Shown: piece after piece, positions 5,647 through 8,177 of the stretch | Numbering within the stretch: position 1 is the first letter of the stretch | How the letters are laid out: each line of letters opens with the position of its first letter | Origin: a virus | UHGV virus genome: UHGV-2196677 | Reading direction: 5' to 3' (one strand) | Length of the DNA stretch: 15,349 nt | Program-made: the position numbers and the translations under genes | Notes under the pieces: model-generated | What the model was told of the DNA's origin: nothing | What the model saw: only the letters and a program-made list of their open reading frames with translations | The model's database searches: none

Positions 5647-8177
5647 TGCCAGTCGTACCAACAGTATCCGGACGCCAGGTTGAGAGCCGTGGAGTTCAGT
5701 CAGCAGGCTTGCAGACGTTTTCTCAGCCAGGTATTGGTGATGCTTTTGTTCGGGCAGGGACAGAGGCAATTGATGTTCTTGGTCAGGCAAAACAGCGCGC
5801 CAATATTGCCTTGGTTCAGGAGGCATCCCTTAAACTCAGTCAGACAGGCAGTGATCTGCTGAATAATCCTGAAACAGGATTGCTTAACCTGAAAGGGAAA
5901 AATGCTATTGGAAAAGGCCATGAGTATACACAGCAGTTTGATGCTCAGATCGAACAACTGGCTATGTCGCTGCCGGATGAACAGGCTCGTAATGCTTTCA
6001 TGCAGCAGGCGCAGCAGCAGCGTATTCAGTTCGCTACGCAGGCCGGGAGGTACGAGATAGGGCAAATAAATGCCTACGAAGAAGGCCAGTTTCAGGCGAC
6101 ACTGCTGAATAATGGTAAAAATGCCTCAGCATTATATGGCGACAACGCAGCATACATATTGGCTAATACGCAAACTTTCCAGCAAATTGAGGATTACGGT
6201 ATTGCGCATGGCTGGAGCGACGAGCAAATCCAGGCCAAGAAAATCGAGTTTAAAGAAGCAACAGCAAAAGCAACTGCTCAAAATGCTATTGGAGCAAACT
6301 ATCTTCAGGTAAGACAGCAAAACGGCGAGTTAAGCGATACTGCTGCTGGATCTCGCCGTGCTGTAGCAGATAGTGGCTCTTCCGATCGTACCCGCGGTAT
6401 ACGCAACAATAACCCCGGCAATCTTGAATACAGCAAAACTAATCCGTGGGTTGGGCAGACTGGTGATGATGGTCGCTTTGCCAAATTCGAAACCCCTGAA
6501 CACGGTATTCGCGCGCTTGGTCGCAATTTGCTGTCGTATCAGCGTCAGGGTTATGACACCATCAGCGAAATAATTAATCGCTGGGCACCGGCCAGTGATG
6601 ATAATAAAACTGATGCTTATATACGGGCAGTATGTGCTCAGCTCGGTGTAACTCCTGACCAGCCGCTTGACGCATCAAATCCTGACACACTGAAATCTCT
6701 GTGCAAAGCAATTATTCATCATGAGCAAGGCAGTCAGCCGTACAGTGATCAGCAATTGGCCGCTGGCGTTAGTGCCGCACTGGGGCTTTCTCAGCTACCG
6801 ACAAAAAATAAACGTTATACCGGTGTAGCTTGGTTCGATGCTTTAAGTGAATCAGATCAGGCCAGCGTGTTGCGACAGACGGATGCATTAGCCAGACAGC
6901 AGCAGGCTGAATATAGAACGATGCTCGAAAGCCGGGTTCGCGATGCAACGGCTGCGTATATGCGTGGCGTTGAATTTCCTAACCCGCCTGGTGAGGGTGA
7001 GTTCATTGCTGCTTATGGTGTCAGAGAAGGAAACCTGCGATATACCGAGTTCAGAAATTTGCAGATCGCCGGACAGTATATAGGCTCTTTCCGCAACATG
7101 CCGACAAGCAGCATTACCGCATATGTTGAGCAATTACGCCCGGATACTGGTGAGACAGGGGAGGGGTATGCGTCTCGTGCGGAGTTATTCGACCGGGTAT
7201 CGGCGGCAGCCACGAAGGTAATAACCCAGAGGCAGAATAATCCGTTTAGTGCAGCGGTGGAAATCGGAGCCTATAAGCCGATCACCAGCAACAACCCTGA
7301 CGACATCACTGCCGAGGTGGCTAACCGTTTCTCGTCGCAGGAAAGCTTACGCGCGTTGGGAATTAATGCCCCAATCCTCAACAGTGAAGAGGCGGCTGCG
7401 CTGGCACAGCAGGTGCGCGGCACTCAGAACGTTGACCAGACAATTAAACTGTTGCAGAGCATGGGGGAGAAGCTGCCTGCGCCAGCAATACGGCAGGTGG
7501 CATCTGTAATTGCTCCGAACAGTGCGGCAACAGCCTATTCTGCGCTGCTGCTGGGCACGCCGGATAATCAGTACGATAACACCAGACCGTCGATCCCATA
7601 TAGTCAGTTCATCGGGTATAAGCCGACGATGAACAAGTACGACGTTGCAAAGGTTATTCTTTCCGGTGACCAACTACTGAATCCGACGAAGGCCATGAAG
7701 AATGCGGGCATAACTCCGGTACAGTTGCCGAGCGAAGATAAGATGAAAGACGCTTTCGACAAACAGGTAGGTAACGCATTTGCCCGTAACCCGCAGTTAC
7801 GTCAGATCAGTTATAGCCTTTTCAAAGCCGCTTACGCAGGAATAGCTTATCAATCAGGTGATGCATCTACGGTAAGAACCAGTATGCCTGATACAGACAC
7901 TGTTGCTGATGCCGTGAAGTATGCTACTGGCGGTATATACAAGGATTTTAATGGCGGCGACGTTGTAATGCCTTTCGGCATGGATAAATCTACTTTCAAA
8001 GATCGCTATACCACATCTGCGAAACAAGCACTGAAAGAAGCCGGACTTAACGTAAATGCAGTGTCAAACTTCACACCAGTTAATATCGGCAATAACCGGT
8101 ATCGGCTGGTAAATGGTAGCGGACGCTGGGCAACAGATCCCAGAACCAATGAAGCTATTGTCGTGAGGGTTGAATAA
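5646..8177 (+). CDS. large uncharacterised protein A (843 aa), Ala/Gln-rich, with a conserved-looking GIRNNNPGNLEY module
   Basis: Long ORF with GGGGG Shine-Dalgarno at 5635-5639. Its TAA shares a TAATG overlap with the next ORF. No P-loop or catalytic motif recognised. The GIRNNNPGNLEY motif is at 6396-6431. Confidence 0.85.
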   Translation: MPVVPTVSGRQVESRGVQSAGLQTFSQPGIGDAFVRAGTEAIDVLGQAKQRANIALVQEASLKLSQTGSDLLNNPETGLLNLKGKNAIGKGHEYTQQFDAQIEQLAMSLPDEQARNAFMQQAQQQRIQFATQAGRYEIGQINAYEEGQFQATLLNNGKNASALYGDNAAYILANTQTFQQIEDYGIAHGWSDEQIQAKKIEFKEATAKATAQNAIGANYLQVRQQNGELSDTAAGSRRAVADSGSSDRTRGIRNNNPGNLEYSKTNPWVGQTGDDGRFAKFETPEHGIRALGRNLLSYQRQGYDTISEIINRWAPASDDNKTDAYIRAVCAQLGVTPDQPLDASNPDTLKSLCKAIIHHEQGSQPYSDQQLAAGVSAALGLSQLPTKNKRYTGVAWFDALSESDQASVLRQTDALARQQQAEYRTMLESRVRDATAAYMRGVEFPNPPGEGEFIAAYGVREGNLRYTEFRNLQIAGQYIGSFRNMPTSSITAYVEQLRPDTGETGEGYASRAELFDRVSAAATKVITQRQNNPFSAAVEIGAYKPITSNNPDDITAEVANRFSSQESLRALGINAPILNSEEAAALAQQVRGTQNVDQTIKLLQSMGEKLPAPAIRQVASVIAPNSAATAYSALLLGTPDNQYDNTRPSIPYSQFIGYKPTMNKYDVAKVILSGDQLLNPTKAMKNAGITPVQLPSEDKMKDAFDKQVGNAFARNPQLRQISYSLFKAAYAGIAYQSGDASTVRTSMPDTDTVADAVKYATGGIYKDFNGGDVVMPFGMDKSTFKDRYTTSAKQALKEAGLNVNAVSNFTPVNIGNNRYRLVNGSGRWATDPRTNEAIVVRVE

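What the first reader, a model, noticed from the sequence alone, without database searches (positions are those of the whole stretch)
6380..6770. Conserved-looking GIRNNNPGNLEY module in large protein A
Protein A contains a compact region starting RTRGIRNNNPGNLEYSKTNPWVGQTGDDGRFAKFETPEHGIRALGRNLLSYQRQGYDTISEIINRWAP... with invariant-looking Asn/Pro/Gly/Trp positions, embedded in otherwise low-complexity Ala/Gln-rich sequence. I have a vague recollection of NNPGN-type signatures in phage virion-associated proteins but cannot verify this here. If real, it is a functional handle on the operon, for example cell-wall binding or hydrolysis during envelope penetration.
Basis: partly seen in the sequence, partly recalled or inferred. 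Interest (0 to 1): 0.5.

Follow-up and report, generated by a model that had tools for sequence, protein, structure and literature searches.

The report
Cell-wall-cutting domain of ejection protein
The "GIRNNNPGN" module is a known type of phage enzyme domain that cuts the bacterial cell wall (the Enc34-endolysin type), placed inside a homologue of the phage epsilon15 gp15 DNA-ejection protein; this is ordinary in itself, but here the gene sits in a small, capsid-less, satellite-like island, which is unusual.

Summary
Residues 248-380 of the 843-aa protein (window 5646-8177) form a compact, strongly conserved domain.

It is an Enc34-ORF39-type (CDD PHA02564, "PM2 P5-like") lysozyme-like peptidoglycan hydrolase domain:
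- Sequence matches PDB 7Q47 (E 1.7e-16) and 9VVP Gp29 (E 4e-39).
- An AlphaFold model (pLDDT 91.6) superposes on 7Q47 with TM 0.82-0.84.
- The Glu/Trp/Tyr residues the Enc34 paper proposes as catalytically important align to E360, W313 and Y325.
- The GxRNNNPGN, WAP and HENG motifs are near-invariant in 45 homologues.
- Pfam and NCBIfam have no model for it.

The protein is the homologue (79% identity) of Salmonella phage epsilon15 gp15, and is followed by gp16 and gp17 homologues, the presumed ejection proteins.

The unexpected part is the context. The trio lies in a ~19.3-kb tRNA-Gly island with a PICI-type backbone (integrase, AlpA, Icd, DUF927 primase, SSB, iterons, attL/attR) and no capsid, tail, terminase or lysis genes. 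Similar capsid-less elements occur in at least three lineages, one assembled as an excised circle or tandem copy. The genes are intact and under purifying selection. This may be an undescribed satellite variant that carries its own ejection proteins; that reading is not proven.

The parts
5646..8177 (+). Protein A, 843 aa: homologue of Salmonella phage epsilon15 gp15 (internal virion / ejection protein).
   Evidence: 79% aa identity over 843 aa to epsilon15 gp15. phrog_992 matches the full length at E 1e-289. 74% nt identity to epsilon15, and 85-92% to E. coli Uetakeviruses over the first 1527 nt.
6387..6785 (+). Enc34-type (PHA02564) lysozyme-like peptidoglycan hydrolase domain, residues about 248-380.
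   Evidence: PDB sequence hits 7q47_A and 9vvp_L. AF2 model with pLDDT 91.6. Foldseek to 7q47 gives TM 0.82-0.84 and E about 3e-11, with the next hit at E>=1. phrog_7182 'tail injection transglycosylase' matches aa 244-363.
6396..6422 (+). G-I-R-N-N-N-P-G-N signature (residues 251-259).
   Evidence: At least 90% conserved or invariant in 45 homologues and in all gp15 homologues compared.
6582..6584 (+). Trp313 (in RWAP), equivalent to Enc34 Trp79.
   Evidence: Alignment, residue roles from PMC8943055, position. Conserved in 13 of 14 gp15 homologues.
6618..6620 (+). Tyr325, equivalent to Enc34 Tyr95.
   Evidence: Invariant.
6723..6725 (+). Glu360 (in HHEQG), equivalent to the proposed catalytic Glu131 of Enc34.
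   Evidence: Invariant. The following Asn (at least 90% conserved) is Gln here.
8177..10237 (+). gp16 homologue, 686 aa. The N-terminal 245 aa are conserved; the C-terminal part is variable and contains HEALH (nt 9239-9253).
   Evidence: 90% identity to epsilon15 gp16 over the first 245 aa only. phrog_1145 match. HExxH position.
10237..12993 (+). gp17 homologue, 918 aa (virion structural protein).
   Evidence: 89% identity to epsilon15 gp17. phrog_684 at E 1.6e-295. The RefSeq start is at 10237.
12993..13307 (+). 104-aa small protein that travels with the trio.
   Evidence: 82% identical copies follow gp17 in some epsilon15-like prophages.
5343..5549 (+). 68-aa ORF just upstream of the trio. 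In a related E. coli PICI the same ORF precedes a prohead protease/capsid fusion gene.
   Evidence: 90% nt and aa identity to L100 11093-11296, next to the 'ClpP-like prohead protease/major capsid protein fusion protein' gene.
1283..3409 (+). DUF927 primase/helicase, the replication gene of the island.
   Evidence: Pfam DUF927 at E 2.5e-46. phrog_1139 'DNA primase'. Absent from epsilon15-like phages; most of the listed relatives are in small, satellite-sized records.
3434..3556 (.). Iteron cluster 1: GCGGGTTAT twice direct, four times inverted.
14197..14348 (.). Iteron cluster 2: GCGGGTTAT three times direct, twice inverted.
14836..14850 (+). attR core CCCTTCGCCGCTCCA (3' end of tRNA-Gly with one C missing). 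This is the right end of the ~19.3-kb island.
   Evidence: Arm-type TGTATAGA repeats at 14756 and 14768 are shared with the attP arm of L052.

Best explanation
Residues about 248-380 of protein A are an Enc34-ORF39-type (PHA02564) lysozyme-like glycoside hydrolase domain. It most likely cleaves the glycan strands of peptidoglycan, probably as an N-acetylglucosaminidase, using Glu360 as the catalytic acid, with Trp313 and Tyr325 lining the substrate groove.

The domain is inserted between an Ala/Gln-rich N-terminal region and a ~460-residue C-terminal region of the homologue of epsilon15 gp15. gp15 is one of three large proteins (gp15-gp16-gp17) that short-tailed epsilon15-like phages are thought to carry inside the capsid and eject before the DNA. 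The inferred mechanism is that, once ejected into the periplasm, the domain opens a local hole in the murein layer so that the ejected proteins can build a channel to the inner membrane. This is the job the unrelated-in-sequence SLT domain does at the N-terminus of T7 gp16.

What is shown: homology, predicted fold, conserved proposed catalytic residues, synteny, purifying selection. What is inferred: activity of this protein, its packaging into virions, and its role at entry.

In this window the trio is not in a phage. It is in a ~19.3-kb integrase/AlpA/primase island of PICI type at tRNA-Gly. The most likely reading (moderate confidence) is that a phage satellite supplies its own ejection proteins, including this wall-cutting enzyme, to particles built from a helper phage's capsid and tail.
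For: Domain identity:
- phmmer hits to 9vvp_L (E 4.1e-39) and to 7q47_A, the Enc34 endolysin catalytic domain (E 1.7e-16), covering residues 248-403.
- AF2 model with pLDDT 91.6 and pTM 0.86, mostly helical with a short beta-hairpin.
- Foldseek finds 7q47 at TM 0.82-0.84 and E about 3e-11, and nothing else below E=1.
- Enc34 Glu131, Trp79 and Tyr95 (PMC8943055) align to E360, W313 and Y325.
- Motif conservation in 45 homologues and in gp15 homologues.
- The family is biochemically muralytic: Enc34 ORF39deltaC (PMC8943055) and M4Lys, for which HPLC/MS indicates N-acetylglucosaminidase activity (PMC7143992).

Virion and entry role:
- Full-length homology and gp15-16-17 synteny with epsilon15 and phiV10, downstream of tail genes and of gp14, which RefSeq calls 'virion core protein, T7 gp14 family'.
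- The same domain forms the N-terminus of the 1295-aa 'internal virion protein with endolysin domain' of Kayfunaviruses.
- The role of the T7 gp16 N-terminal domain is described in PMC8954989.

Genes functional in the island:
- All three ORFs are intact, and dN/dS among E. coli island copies is 0.04-0.25, similar to the primase at 0.26.
- The three proposed active-site residues are kept in all three island lineages.

Island nature:
- Gene content and annotation; attL and attR; iterons.
- A shared backbone and shared slot with a PICI that carries a prohead protease/capsid fusion gene.
- Capsid-less relatives L012 and L052/L053.
- L052 assembled as a permuted circle or tandem copy with an attP-like site.
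Against: - No enzymatic or virion data exist for this protein.
- Asn361 of the HENG motif, conserved in at least 90% of homologues, is Gln here. The effect is unknown.
- The bond specificity of the family is not settled: the M4Lys data also suggested endopeptidase activity, and epsilon15 gp15 is annotated as a lytic transglycosylase.
- For the satellite reading, no helper, induction, packaging or transfer has been shown.
- The junctions upstream of gp15 differ between the three island lineages, so the arrangement could have arisen more than once, or through decay.
- The E. coli island also carries a P1-like pac site, which points to a different helper from the one suggested by the trio.
- gp14, the T7-gp14-family core protein, is absent from the islands.
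Confidence: 0.85

Rival explanations
1. The domain is a lytic transglycosylase of the SLT/GH23 kind, as epsilon15 gp15 is annotated and as in T7 gp16, rather than a hydrolase of the Enc34 type.
For: The GenBank annotation of epsilon15 gp15 reads 'putative lytic transglycosylase; HHpred 4anr SltB'. Several records label the homologous domain 'peptidoglycan lytic exotransglycosylase'. The Enc34 paper finds distant fold relatedness to both GH23 and GH73.
Against: No Pfam SLT or any other Pfam hit at E<=0.1. Foldseek finds only 7q47 below E=1. The helix order is permuted relative to GH23/GH73. The M4Lys products indicate N-acetylglucosaminidase activity. The biological role would be the same either way.
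Confidence: 0.1
2. The domain has lost catalysis and serves only as a peptidoglycan-binding or structural module of the ejected protein, or the whole gene is a decaying leftover in a defective prophage remnant with no current function.
For: There is an N361Q change in the HENG motif. The island lacks capsid, tail, terminase, lysis genes and gp14. A frameshifted PerC gene and a chimeric pacA'/ant' ORF show that the region has been rearranged.
Against: Glu360, Trp313 and Tyr325 are intact in all island lineages. HEQG also occurs in another homologue, P0112. The ORFs are full length in every island copy that reaches them, with dN/dS of 0.04-0.25. The same capsid-less architecture occurs in three lineages with gp15 at 100, 74 and 49% identity. 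The att sites are intact, and one relative was assembled in a permuted, host-free form consistent with excision. The primase is not an epsilon15-like phage gene, so the island is not simply a deleted Uetakevirus.
Confidence: 0.1
3. In the island the trio is not used for the island's own transfer. It acts against incoming or resident epsilon15-like phages, either as interference or exclusion by poisoning their core assembly, or as a decoy.
For: Satellites commonly interfere with helpers, and a PICI of a podophage contributes to superinfection immunity (PMC11773190). The trio occupies the slot where a related PICI carries a capsid-related gene, whose role I assume to be morphogenesis interference. 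The gp15 alleles, especially the hydrolase domain, are swapped among island copies and track local phages.
Against: No PADLOC model matches any island protein. Full-length proteins with conserved proposed catalytic residues and strong purifying selection over all three genes fit retained native function better than a poison role. There is no experimental evidence either way. This reading is not exclusive of the satellite reading.
Confidence: 0.15
4. The domain works as an endolysin, for lysis from within at the end of infection, rather than at entry.
For: Stand-alone members of the family are endolysins of Chi-like and Mu-like phages: Enc34, M4Lys and the MP22 group. phrog_1044 and phrog_873 are labelled 'endolysin'.
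Against: Here the domain is internal to an 843-aa protein that is syntenic with virion proteins. There is no holin or spanin gene next to it and no C-terminal transmembrane domain of the Enc34 kind. Epsilon15-like phages keep it in the structural operon.
Confidence: 0.03

Closest known systems
Hafnia phage Enc34 ORF39 endolysin catalytic domain (PDB 7Q47) and Salmonella phage BSPM4 M4Lys; CDD family PHA02564
   Same: Same domain family by sequence (E 1.7e-16) and by predicted fold (TM 0.82-0.84). Same GxRNNNPGN, RWAP and HE(N/Q)G signatures, and the same Glu/Trp/Tyr set.
   Different: Those are ~26-kDa lysis proteins with a C-terminal transmembrane domain, encoded in lysis cassettes. Here the domain is internal to an 843-aa virion-type protein, at about 35% identity. 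This copy has Gln instead of Asn after the proposed catalytic Glu.
Salmonella phage epsilon15 gp15 (and phiV10 p18), Uetakevirus
   Same: Full-length homologue (79% aa identity), same domain position, same gp15-gp16-gp17 order.
   Different: In the phages the block follows portal, capsid, tail and gp13-gp14 genes in a ~39-40-kb genome. Here it follows primase, SSB and ProQ in a ~19.3-kb island with no other structural genes. The gene is mosaic: its 5' 1.5 kb is closer to E. coli phages, and the rest is closer to epsilon15.
T7 gp16 N-terminal lytic transglycosylase domain
   Same: Analogous role: a murein-cleaving domain carried on an ejected internal core protein, which helps DNA entry through cross-linked peptidoglycan (PMC8954989).
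   Different: Different sequence family (SLT/GH23; no Pfam SLT hit here). In T7 it sits at the N-terminus of the largest core protein; here it is internal to gp15.
Kayfunavirus (T7-like) 'internal virion protein with endolysin domain', 1295 aa; PDB 9VVP chain L 'Gp29', also 1295 aa, is probably a protein of this kind
   Same: Carries the same Enc34-type domain, with about 60% identity in the listed Kayfunavirus records. 9vvp_L matches at E 4e-39.
   Different: The domain is at the extreme N-terminus of a gp16-type protein, and the rest of the protein is unrelated to protein A. That 9VVP belongs to this group rests only on its equal length and its N-terminal match.
Pseudoalteromonas phage PM2 structural protein P5 and relatives in NO16-like tailless vibriophages
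   Same: Same domain (38-51% identity by tblastn). This is the source of the widespread 'structural protein P5' label.
   Different: Those are membrane-containing tailless phages with small proteins.
Gram-negative PICIs (for example the int-AlpA-Icd-DUF4222-primase-SSB island at cspD/clpS, L100; EcCICFT073 and EcCIMP1 in the literature)
   Same: Same backbone order and shared segments at 88-91% identity (YlcI/Icd region, SSB, 68-aa ORF). P4-type integrase at a tRNA site, AlpA, a PerC-family gene, and iterons next to the primase.
   Different: Published PICIs are described as lacking phage structural genes other than capsid or packaging-related ones (PMC10085698; PMC11773190). This island carries three large virion internal-protein genes in that slot and is about 19 kb, compared with about 10 kb for L100.

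Membership tests
Enc34-type / PHA02564 muralytic domain | Significant sequence similarity to the Enc34 ORF39 catalytic domain | tested here: met
   phmmer against 7q47_A gives E 1.7e-16, query residues 248-368 to chain residues 6-140. tblastn to Enc34-like, Chi-like and BSPM4 endolysins gives 37-40% identity.
Enc34-type / PHA02564 muralytic domain | All-helical fold resembling the alpha-lobe of lysozyme, as in 7Q47 | tested here: met
   AF2 model with pLDDT 91.6: five main helices plus a short hairpin. Foldseek to 7q47_A and 7q47_B gives TM 0.84 and 0.82, probability 1.00. This is a predicted structure, not a solved one.
Enc34-type / PHA02564 muralytic domain | Proposed catalytic Glu131 plus Trp79 and Tyr95 in the groove | tested here: met
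   These align to E360, W313 and Y325. They are conserved in the gp15 homologues, with one W-to-L exception in L013. The spatial arrangement in the model was not inspected.
Enc34-type / PHA02564 muralytic domain | Peptidoglycan-degrading activity in vitro | not testable with these tools
   Shown only for Enc34 ORF39deltaC and M4LysdeltaTMD (PMC8943055, PMC7143992).
SLT / GH23 lytic transglycosylase (the epsilon15 gp15 annotation; T7 gp16 N-terminus) | Match to the SLT-type profile | tested here: not met
   No Pfam family at E<=0.1 for the whole protein. No GH23 structure among Foldseek hits below E=1.
Epsilon15-type ejection / internal virion protein gp15 | Full-length homology to epsilon15 gp15, with gp16 and gp17 homologues immediately downstream | tested here: met
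   79%, 90% (first 245 aa only) and 89% aa identity, in the same order and with abutting or overlapping genes.
Epsilon15-type ejection / internal virion protein gp15 | Encoded in the structural operon of a complete podophage, after the tail genes and gp13-gp14 | tested here: not met
   No portal, capsid, gp11-gp14 or tailspike genes in the window, in the 39-kb chromosomal locus L003, or in L012, L052 and L053.
Epsilon15-type ejection / internal virion protein gp15 | Physically present in virions and released at infection | not testable with these tools
   That epsilon15 virions contain gp15 and gp17 is from my own recollection of the epsilon15 cryo-EM and genetics literature. Those papers were not held.
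PICI-type phage satellite | Integrase at one end, AlpA regulator, primase/replication gene with an adjacent origin, flanking att repeats | tested here: met
   Integrase and AlpA Pfam hits. DUF927 primase. Iterons directly 3' of the primase gene. attL in tRNA-Gly and attR at window 14836-14850.
PICI-type phage satellite | No phage structural or lysis genes apart from packaging or capsid-redirection genes; size about 10-15 kb | tested here: not met
   The island holds three virion internal-protein genes (7.3 kb) and is about 19.3 kb. There are no capsid, tail, terminase or lysis genes.
PICI-type phage satellite | Induction, replication and high-frequency packaging by a helper phage | not testable with these tools
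   Indirect evidence only: the relative L052 was assembled as a permuted, attP-containing ~19.2-kb unit, and the E. coli island holds a P1-like pac site.

The most novel reading that the evidence does not exclude
The window belongs to an undescribed variant of PICI-type phage satellites, about 19.2-19.3 kb, which is half the genome of an epsilon15-like helper. In the slot where a related PICI carries a capsid-related gene, these elements carry the epsilon15-type trio gp15-gp16-gp17, including this peptidoglycan hydrolase. On this reading, satellite particles built from stolen capsids and tails are loaded with satellite-encoded ejection proteins. Possible benefits are getting past entry barriers or superinfection exclusion aimed at the helper's proteins, delivering the variable gp16 C-terminal payload, or sabotaging helper virions.
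Probability: 0.35. Interest if true: 0.7.

Novelty: new member of a known kind. Interest (0 to 1): 0.35.

Why it matters
For the finding as written, the value is annotation. RefSeq labels the protein 'hypothetical', and Pfam and NCBIfam do not recognise the domain. It can nevertheless be assigned to a structurally and biochemically characterised muralytic family, with three named candidate active-site residues. This gives a functional handle on the gp15-17 block, and corrects or sharpens the 'lytic transglycosylase', 'head protein' and 'structural protein P5' labels that circulate for this family.

The context could matter more. In the satellite descriptions I could read, such elements either lack structural genes or carry capsid and packaging genes. 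An element that keeps only the DNA-ejection proteins would show that the entry step can also be privatised by a satellite. It would also offer a natural system for asking which phage components ejection proteins must match.

Tried and rejected
- Pfam (E<=0.1) and NCBIfam gave nothing for gp15, gp16 or gp17. PADLOC gave nothing for ten island proteins.
- PDB sequence searches for gp16 and gp17 found no useful relative.
- Searches for attR with mismatches only failed, because the repeat has a 1-nt deletion. It was found by reading the sequence.
- ARAGORN finds no tRNA inside the window or in L052.
- I looked for a shared junction, or a gp14 remnant, upstream of gp15 in the three island lineages and found none. 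Only about 75 nt upstream of the window's gp15 resemble the gp14 3' end of two phages.
- No sigma-70-like promoter was found in 4900-5700.
- Literature searches for satellites encoding ejection or internal virion proteins found nothing relevant. This is absence in the held library only.
- The entry code 9VVP is not in the held papers. The epsilon15 genetics paper and Moak & Molineux 2004 are not held.
- I considered and rejected 'simple deletion derivative of a Uetakevirus prophage', because the primase is not a Uetakevirus gene and the backbone is shared with a PICI.
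Full report
**1. The observation**

The ORF at 5646..8177 (+) encodes 843 aa. RTRGIRNNNPGNLEY begins at residue 248 (nt 6387), and the span 6380-6770 covers residues 245-375, so the coordinates and sequence are as described.

The flanks are Ala/Gln-rich: the N-terminal 245 aa are 14% Ala and 13% Gln. They are not low-complexity. Forty-residue Shannon entropy is 3.3-3.9 bits throughout, and the whole protein matches phrog_992 end to end (E 1e-289).

**2. What the module is**

Other sources identify the module clearly:

- **PHROGs.** The residues match phrog_7182 'tail injection transglycosylase' (aa 244-363) and several 'endolysin' phrogs.
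- **PDB sequences.** There are two hits on the module: 9vvp chain L 'Gp29' (1295 aa, chain residues 3-151, E 4.1e-39) and 7q47 'Endolysin' (E 1.7e-16).
- **What 7Q47 is.** It is the catalytic domain of the Hafnia phage Enc34 ORF39 endolysin. This is the structural prototype of CDD family PHA02564, described as an all-helical, permuted relative of the lysozyme alpha-lobe and distantly related to GH73 and GH23. Glu131 is the proposed catalytic residue, and Trp79 and Tyr95 are conserved in the groove. The domain lyses outer-membrane-permeabilised E. coli, P. aeruginosa and H. alvei (PMC8943055).
- **A second tested member.** The related M4Lys of Salmonella phage BSPM4 degrades purified peptidoglycan, and its muropeptide products indicate N-acetylglucosaminidase activity (PMC7143992).
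- **Residue mapping.** Counting along the HMMER alignment, Enc34 Trp79, Tyr95 and Glu131 correspond to W313 (RWAP), Y325 and E360 (HHEQG) of protein A.
- **Predicted fold.** An AlphaFold2 model of residues 243-385, built on 45 homologues, has mean pLDDT 91.6 and pTM 0.86. Foldseek against the PDB finds 7q47 chains A and B at TM 0.84 and 0.82 (E about 3e-11). No other entry falls below E=1.

**3. Conservation**

- The search of the 5.8-billion-protein collection returned 430 proteins with E<=0.001. Many are 130-225-aa stand-alone proteins, some called 'structural protein'.
- In 45 of them, at 44-69% identity to the query, the positions G-x-R-N-x-N-P-G-N, W, G, F, G-x-R-A, Y, A-P, N-x-T, Y and I-x-x-H-E-N-G are invariant or at least 90% conserved.
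- This copy has Gln for the conserved Asn after the proposed catalytic Glu (HEQG). One other homologue, P0112, does the same.

**4. Where the domain occurs**

tblastn finds the domain in 813 of 50,697 phage records, in four settings:

- Internal to gp15 of epsilon15-like phages.
- At the N-terminus of the gp16-type 'internal virion protein D / with endolysin domain' of T7-like Kayfunaviruses. One such CDS encodes 1295 aa, the length of 9vvp Gp29.
- As stand-alone endolysins of Mu-like Pseudomonas phages and Chi-like phages.
- As PM2 'structural protein P5' and its relatives in tailless vibriophages.

The module is thus a known, widespread muralytic domain used both for lysis and on virion proteins.

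**5. The protein and its neighbours**

- Protein A is the homologue of epsilon15 gp15: 79% aa identity over the full length, and 74% nt identity.
- Its first 1527 nt are 85-92% identical to E. coli Uetakeviruses such as phiV10 and HEMP4, so the gene is mosaic.
- The next two ORFs are gp16 and gp17 homologues. For gp16, 90% identity holds over only the first 245 aa, and the rest is different. For gp17 the identity is 89%.
- In the phages, this block follows portal, capsid, tail and gp13-gp14 genes. RefSeq calls the gp14 homologue 'virion core protein, T7 gp14 family'.
- By analogy with T7, whose gp16 N-terminal transglycosylase domain is needed for genome entry through highly cross-linked murein (review PMC8954989), the domain most likely cuts the wall locally after ejection. 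This step is inferred, not shown.

**6. The context is not a phage**

The window matches at 99.9% a chromosomal segment of E. coli 82.0312. Annotation of the surrounding 39 kb and Pfam scans give the following order: tRNA-Gly, P4-type integrase, a 265-aa ORF, AlpA, AntA, BRO-N, YlcI/YnfO, Icd-like, DUF4222, DUF927 primase, SSB, ProQ, a 138-aa ORF, frameshifted PerC, a 68-aa ORF, gp15, gp16, gp17, a 104-aa ORF, then about 1.5 kb with little coding, then yqeG.

There are no capsid, portal, terminase, tail or lysis genes.

Boundaries and origin-like features:

- The right boundary is a copy of the tRNA-Gly 3' end lacking one C, at window 14836-14850. This gives an island of about 19.27 kb.
- Two clusters of the 9-mer GCGGGTTAT and its complement lie just after the primase gene (3434-3556) and near the right end (14197-14348). 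They resemble the ori/crr iteron pairs of P4, as I recall them.

**7. Evidence that this is a PICI-type backbone**

- The primase is absent from epsilon15-like phages. Apart from one 106-kb Klebsiella phage record, its listed relatives are mostly in small, satellite-sized records.
- Segments of the island (YlcI/Icd, SSB, the 68-aa ORF) are 88-91% identical to a ~10-kb int-AlpA-Icd-DUF4222-primase-SSB island at cspD/clpS in other E. coli. There, the 68-aa ORF directly precedes a 'ClpP-like prohead protease/major capsid protein fusion' gene.
- The epsilon15-type trio therefore occupies the slot that in a related PICI holds a capsid-related gene.
- The satellite literature I could read describes PICIs as lacking other structural genes, and uses tail profiles as 'forbidden' markers (PMC10085698; PMC11773190).

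**8. Is the arrangement an accident?**

Of 13 genome loci and 80 IMG/VR loci that encode gp15 relatives, nearly all of those with enough upstream flank to judge are ordinary ~40-kb prophages with portal-to-gp14 genes upstream.

Capsid-less 'primase + SSB + gp15-17' elements nevertheless recur in three lineages:

- **The E. coli island.** Loci L003 and L017-L020. The 68-aa-ORF-to-gp15 junction is present in 45 of 5426 complete genomes.
- **L052 and L053.** Primase 61% identical, gp15 74%.
- **L012, in Pectobacterium zantedeschiae.** Primase 61% identical, gp15 49%, with a QueC-like / deoxyribosyltransferase-like cargo.

L052 is a 19,241-bp metagenomic contig whose gene order is a circular permutation of the integrated form. 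Reading along the contig: AlpA, the trio, iterons, an attP-like copy of the tRNA-Gly end, then the integrase. It contains no host genes, and its two ends repeat about 47 nt with 3 mismatches. It is therefore an excised circle or a tandem copy of about 19.2 kb.

Both measured units (19.2 and 19.3 kb) are about half of the epsilon15 and phiV10 genomes (39.7 and 39.1 kb).

Among E. coli island copies the three genes are intact, and dN/dS is 0.04-0.25, against 0.26 for the primase. E360, W313 and Y325 are kept in all three lineages.

These facts argue against a decaying remnant, and for a mobile element that uses the trio.

Arguments against a single clean story:

- The sequences upstream of gp15 differ between lineages.
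- gp14 is absent from the islands.
- The E. coli lineage holds a P1-type pac site (section 9).

**9. Other features seen in the window**

- **A P1-like pac site.** The 138-aa ORF (4560-4976) is a chimera of a P1 pacA fragment and a P1 ant1/icd-region fragment. Its DNA at 4575-4740 aligns to the P1 pac site at about 83% identity. The IHF and cleavage core is nearly identical, and 4 of the 7 TGATCA hexamers are kept. This suggests possible P1-type headful packaging of the island or of its flanks.
- **Allele swapping in the domain.** Within E. coli island copies the hydrolase domain is the most variable part of gp15. In L019 the identities are N-terminus 99%, domain 86%, C-terminus 96-98%.
- **A metalloprotease-like motif in gp16.** The variable part of gp16 contains an HExxH motif, HEALH, at residue 355. 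The Pectobacterium gp16 has a weak DarB-like match.

**10. Verdict**

The finding is correct, and its interpretation is supported by homology. The module belongs to a family that is already structurally and biochemically characterised, and epsilon15 gp15 already carries a muralytic annotation. The domain itself is a new member of a known kind and of modest interest.

The surrounding element is the more interesting object. It is a PICI-like island that keeps only the ejection-protein genes of a podophage. I could not find this described, and it remains untested.

Noticed in passing
window 1-14850 (island continues left in L003 7578-12000): The window is the right three-quarters of a ~19.3-kb island at tRNA-Gly (glyU), between actS and yqeG in E. 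coli. It has a PICI-type backbone (integrase, AlpA, AntA, BRO-N, Icd, DUF4222, DUF927 primase, SSB, ProQ, PerC) and carries epsilon15-type gp15-16-17, but no capsid, tail, terminase or lysis genes. Related capsid-less elements are L012 (Pectobacterium) and L052/L053 (IMG/VR).
   Followed up: yes
window 4575-4740 (inside ORF 4560-4976): This is a P1-like pac site, about 83% identical to P1 pac. The IHF and cleavage core is nearly identical, and TGATCA hexamers are kept at 4577, 4604, 4700 and 4723. It lies inside a chimeric ORF made of a pacA fragment fused to an ant1/icd-region fragment. It is present only in the E. coli lineage of the island.
   Followed up: partly
window 3434-3556 and 14197-14348: There are two clusters of the 9-mer GCGGGTTAT and its complement (2 direct + 4 inverted, and 3 direct + 2 inverted). 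One lies directly 3' of the primase gene and the other near the right end of the island. They look like an origin plus a second iteron site that together bracket the SSB-to-gp17 region. L052 has analogous TGTTGGTTCA repeats next to its attP.
   Followed up: partly
window 14836-14850 and 14756-14775: The attR core CCCTTCGCCGCTCCA is the tRNA-Gly 3' end with one C deleted. Two TGTATAGA arm-type repeats lie nearby, and these are also present beside the attP-like site of L052. The annotated 139-aa ORF on the minus strand (14443-14862) overlaps attR and may not be a real gene.
   Followed up: partly
window 8177-10237, HEALH at 9239-9253: The gp16 homologue is a two-part mosaic. Its N-terminal 245 aa are 90% identical to epsilon15 gp16, and its C-terminal ~440 aa are unrelated to epsilon15's. 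This C-terminal part contains an HExxH metalloprotease-like motif. In L012 the corresponding region gives a weak DarB-like antirestriction match (E 6e-08). It may be an ejected effector payload.
   Followed up: no
window 5646-8177 compared with L019 and L020: Among otherwise 96-100% identical E. coli island copies, the hydrolase domain is only 85-86% identical, and reads HENG rather than HEQG. The gene's first 1.5 kb tracks E. coli Uetakeviruses while the rest tracks epsilon15. This indicates recombinational allele exchange with phages.
   Followed up: partly
window 5228-5579 (68-aa ORF 5343-5549): This segment is 90% identical to a segment in other E. coli genomes where it directly precedes a 'ClpP-like prohead protease/major capsid protein fusion' gene of a ~10-kb PICI at cspD/clpS (L100). 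About 75 nt upstream of gp15 (from about 5572) resemble the 3' end of gp14 of phages EC.W1-9 and Tyrion, which marks the capture joint.
   Followed up: partly
window 4985-5210: RefSeq annotates a frameshifted PerC-family regulator gene here. A terminator-like hairpin lies at 5215-5236. PerC-family genes are typical PICI cargo according to PMC11773190.
   Followed up: no
window 15-731: The 238-aa TTG ORF in the mechanical ORF list is probably not a gene. RefSeq places a YlcI/YnfO (DUF3950) gene on the minus strand at 125-322, and an Icd-like gene at 528-731.
   Followed up: partly
L012 4772-7364 (minus strand): The Pectobacterium relative carries cargo between its primase and SSB genes: a QueC-like protein and a 441-aa protein with a nucleoside 2-deoxyribosyltransferase domain, plus a KilA-N protein. 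This could be a defence or DNA-modification cargo in the variable slot.
   Followed up: no
window 1283-3409 compared with L012 586-3339 and L052 2212-4971: The window's primase (708 aa) lacks the Zn-ribbon and Toprim domains that its 917-919-aa relatives have. Its N-terminal ~140 aa belong to a different family (phrog_2850, phrog_864).
   Followed up: no
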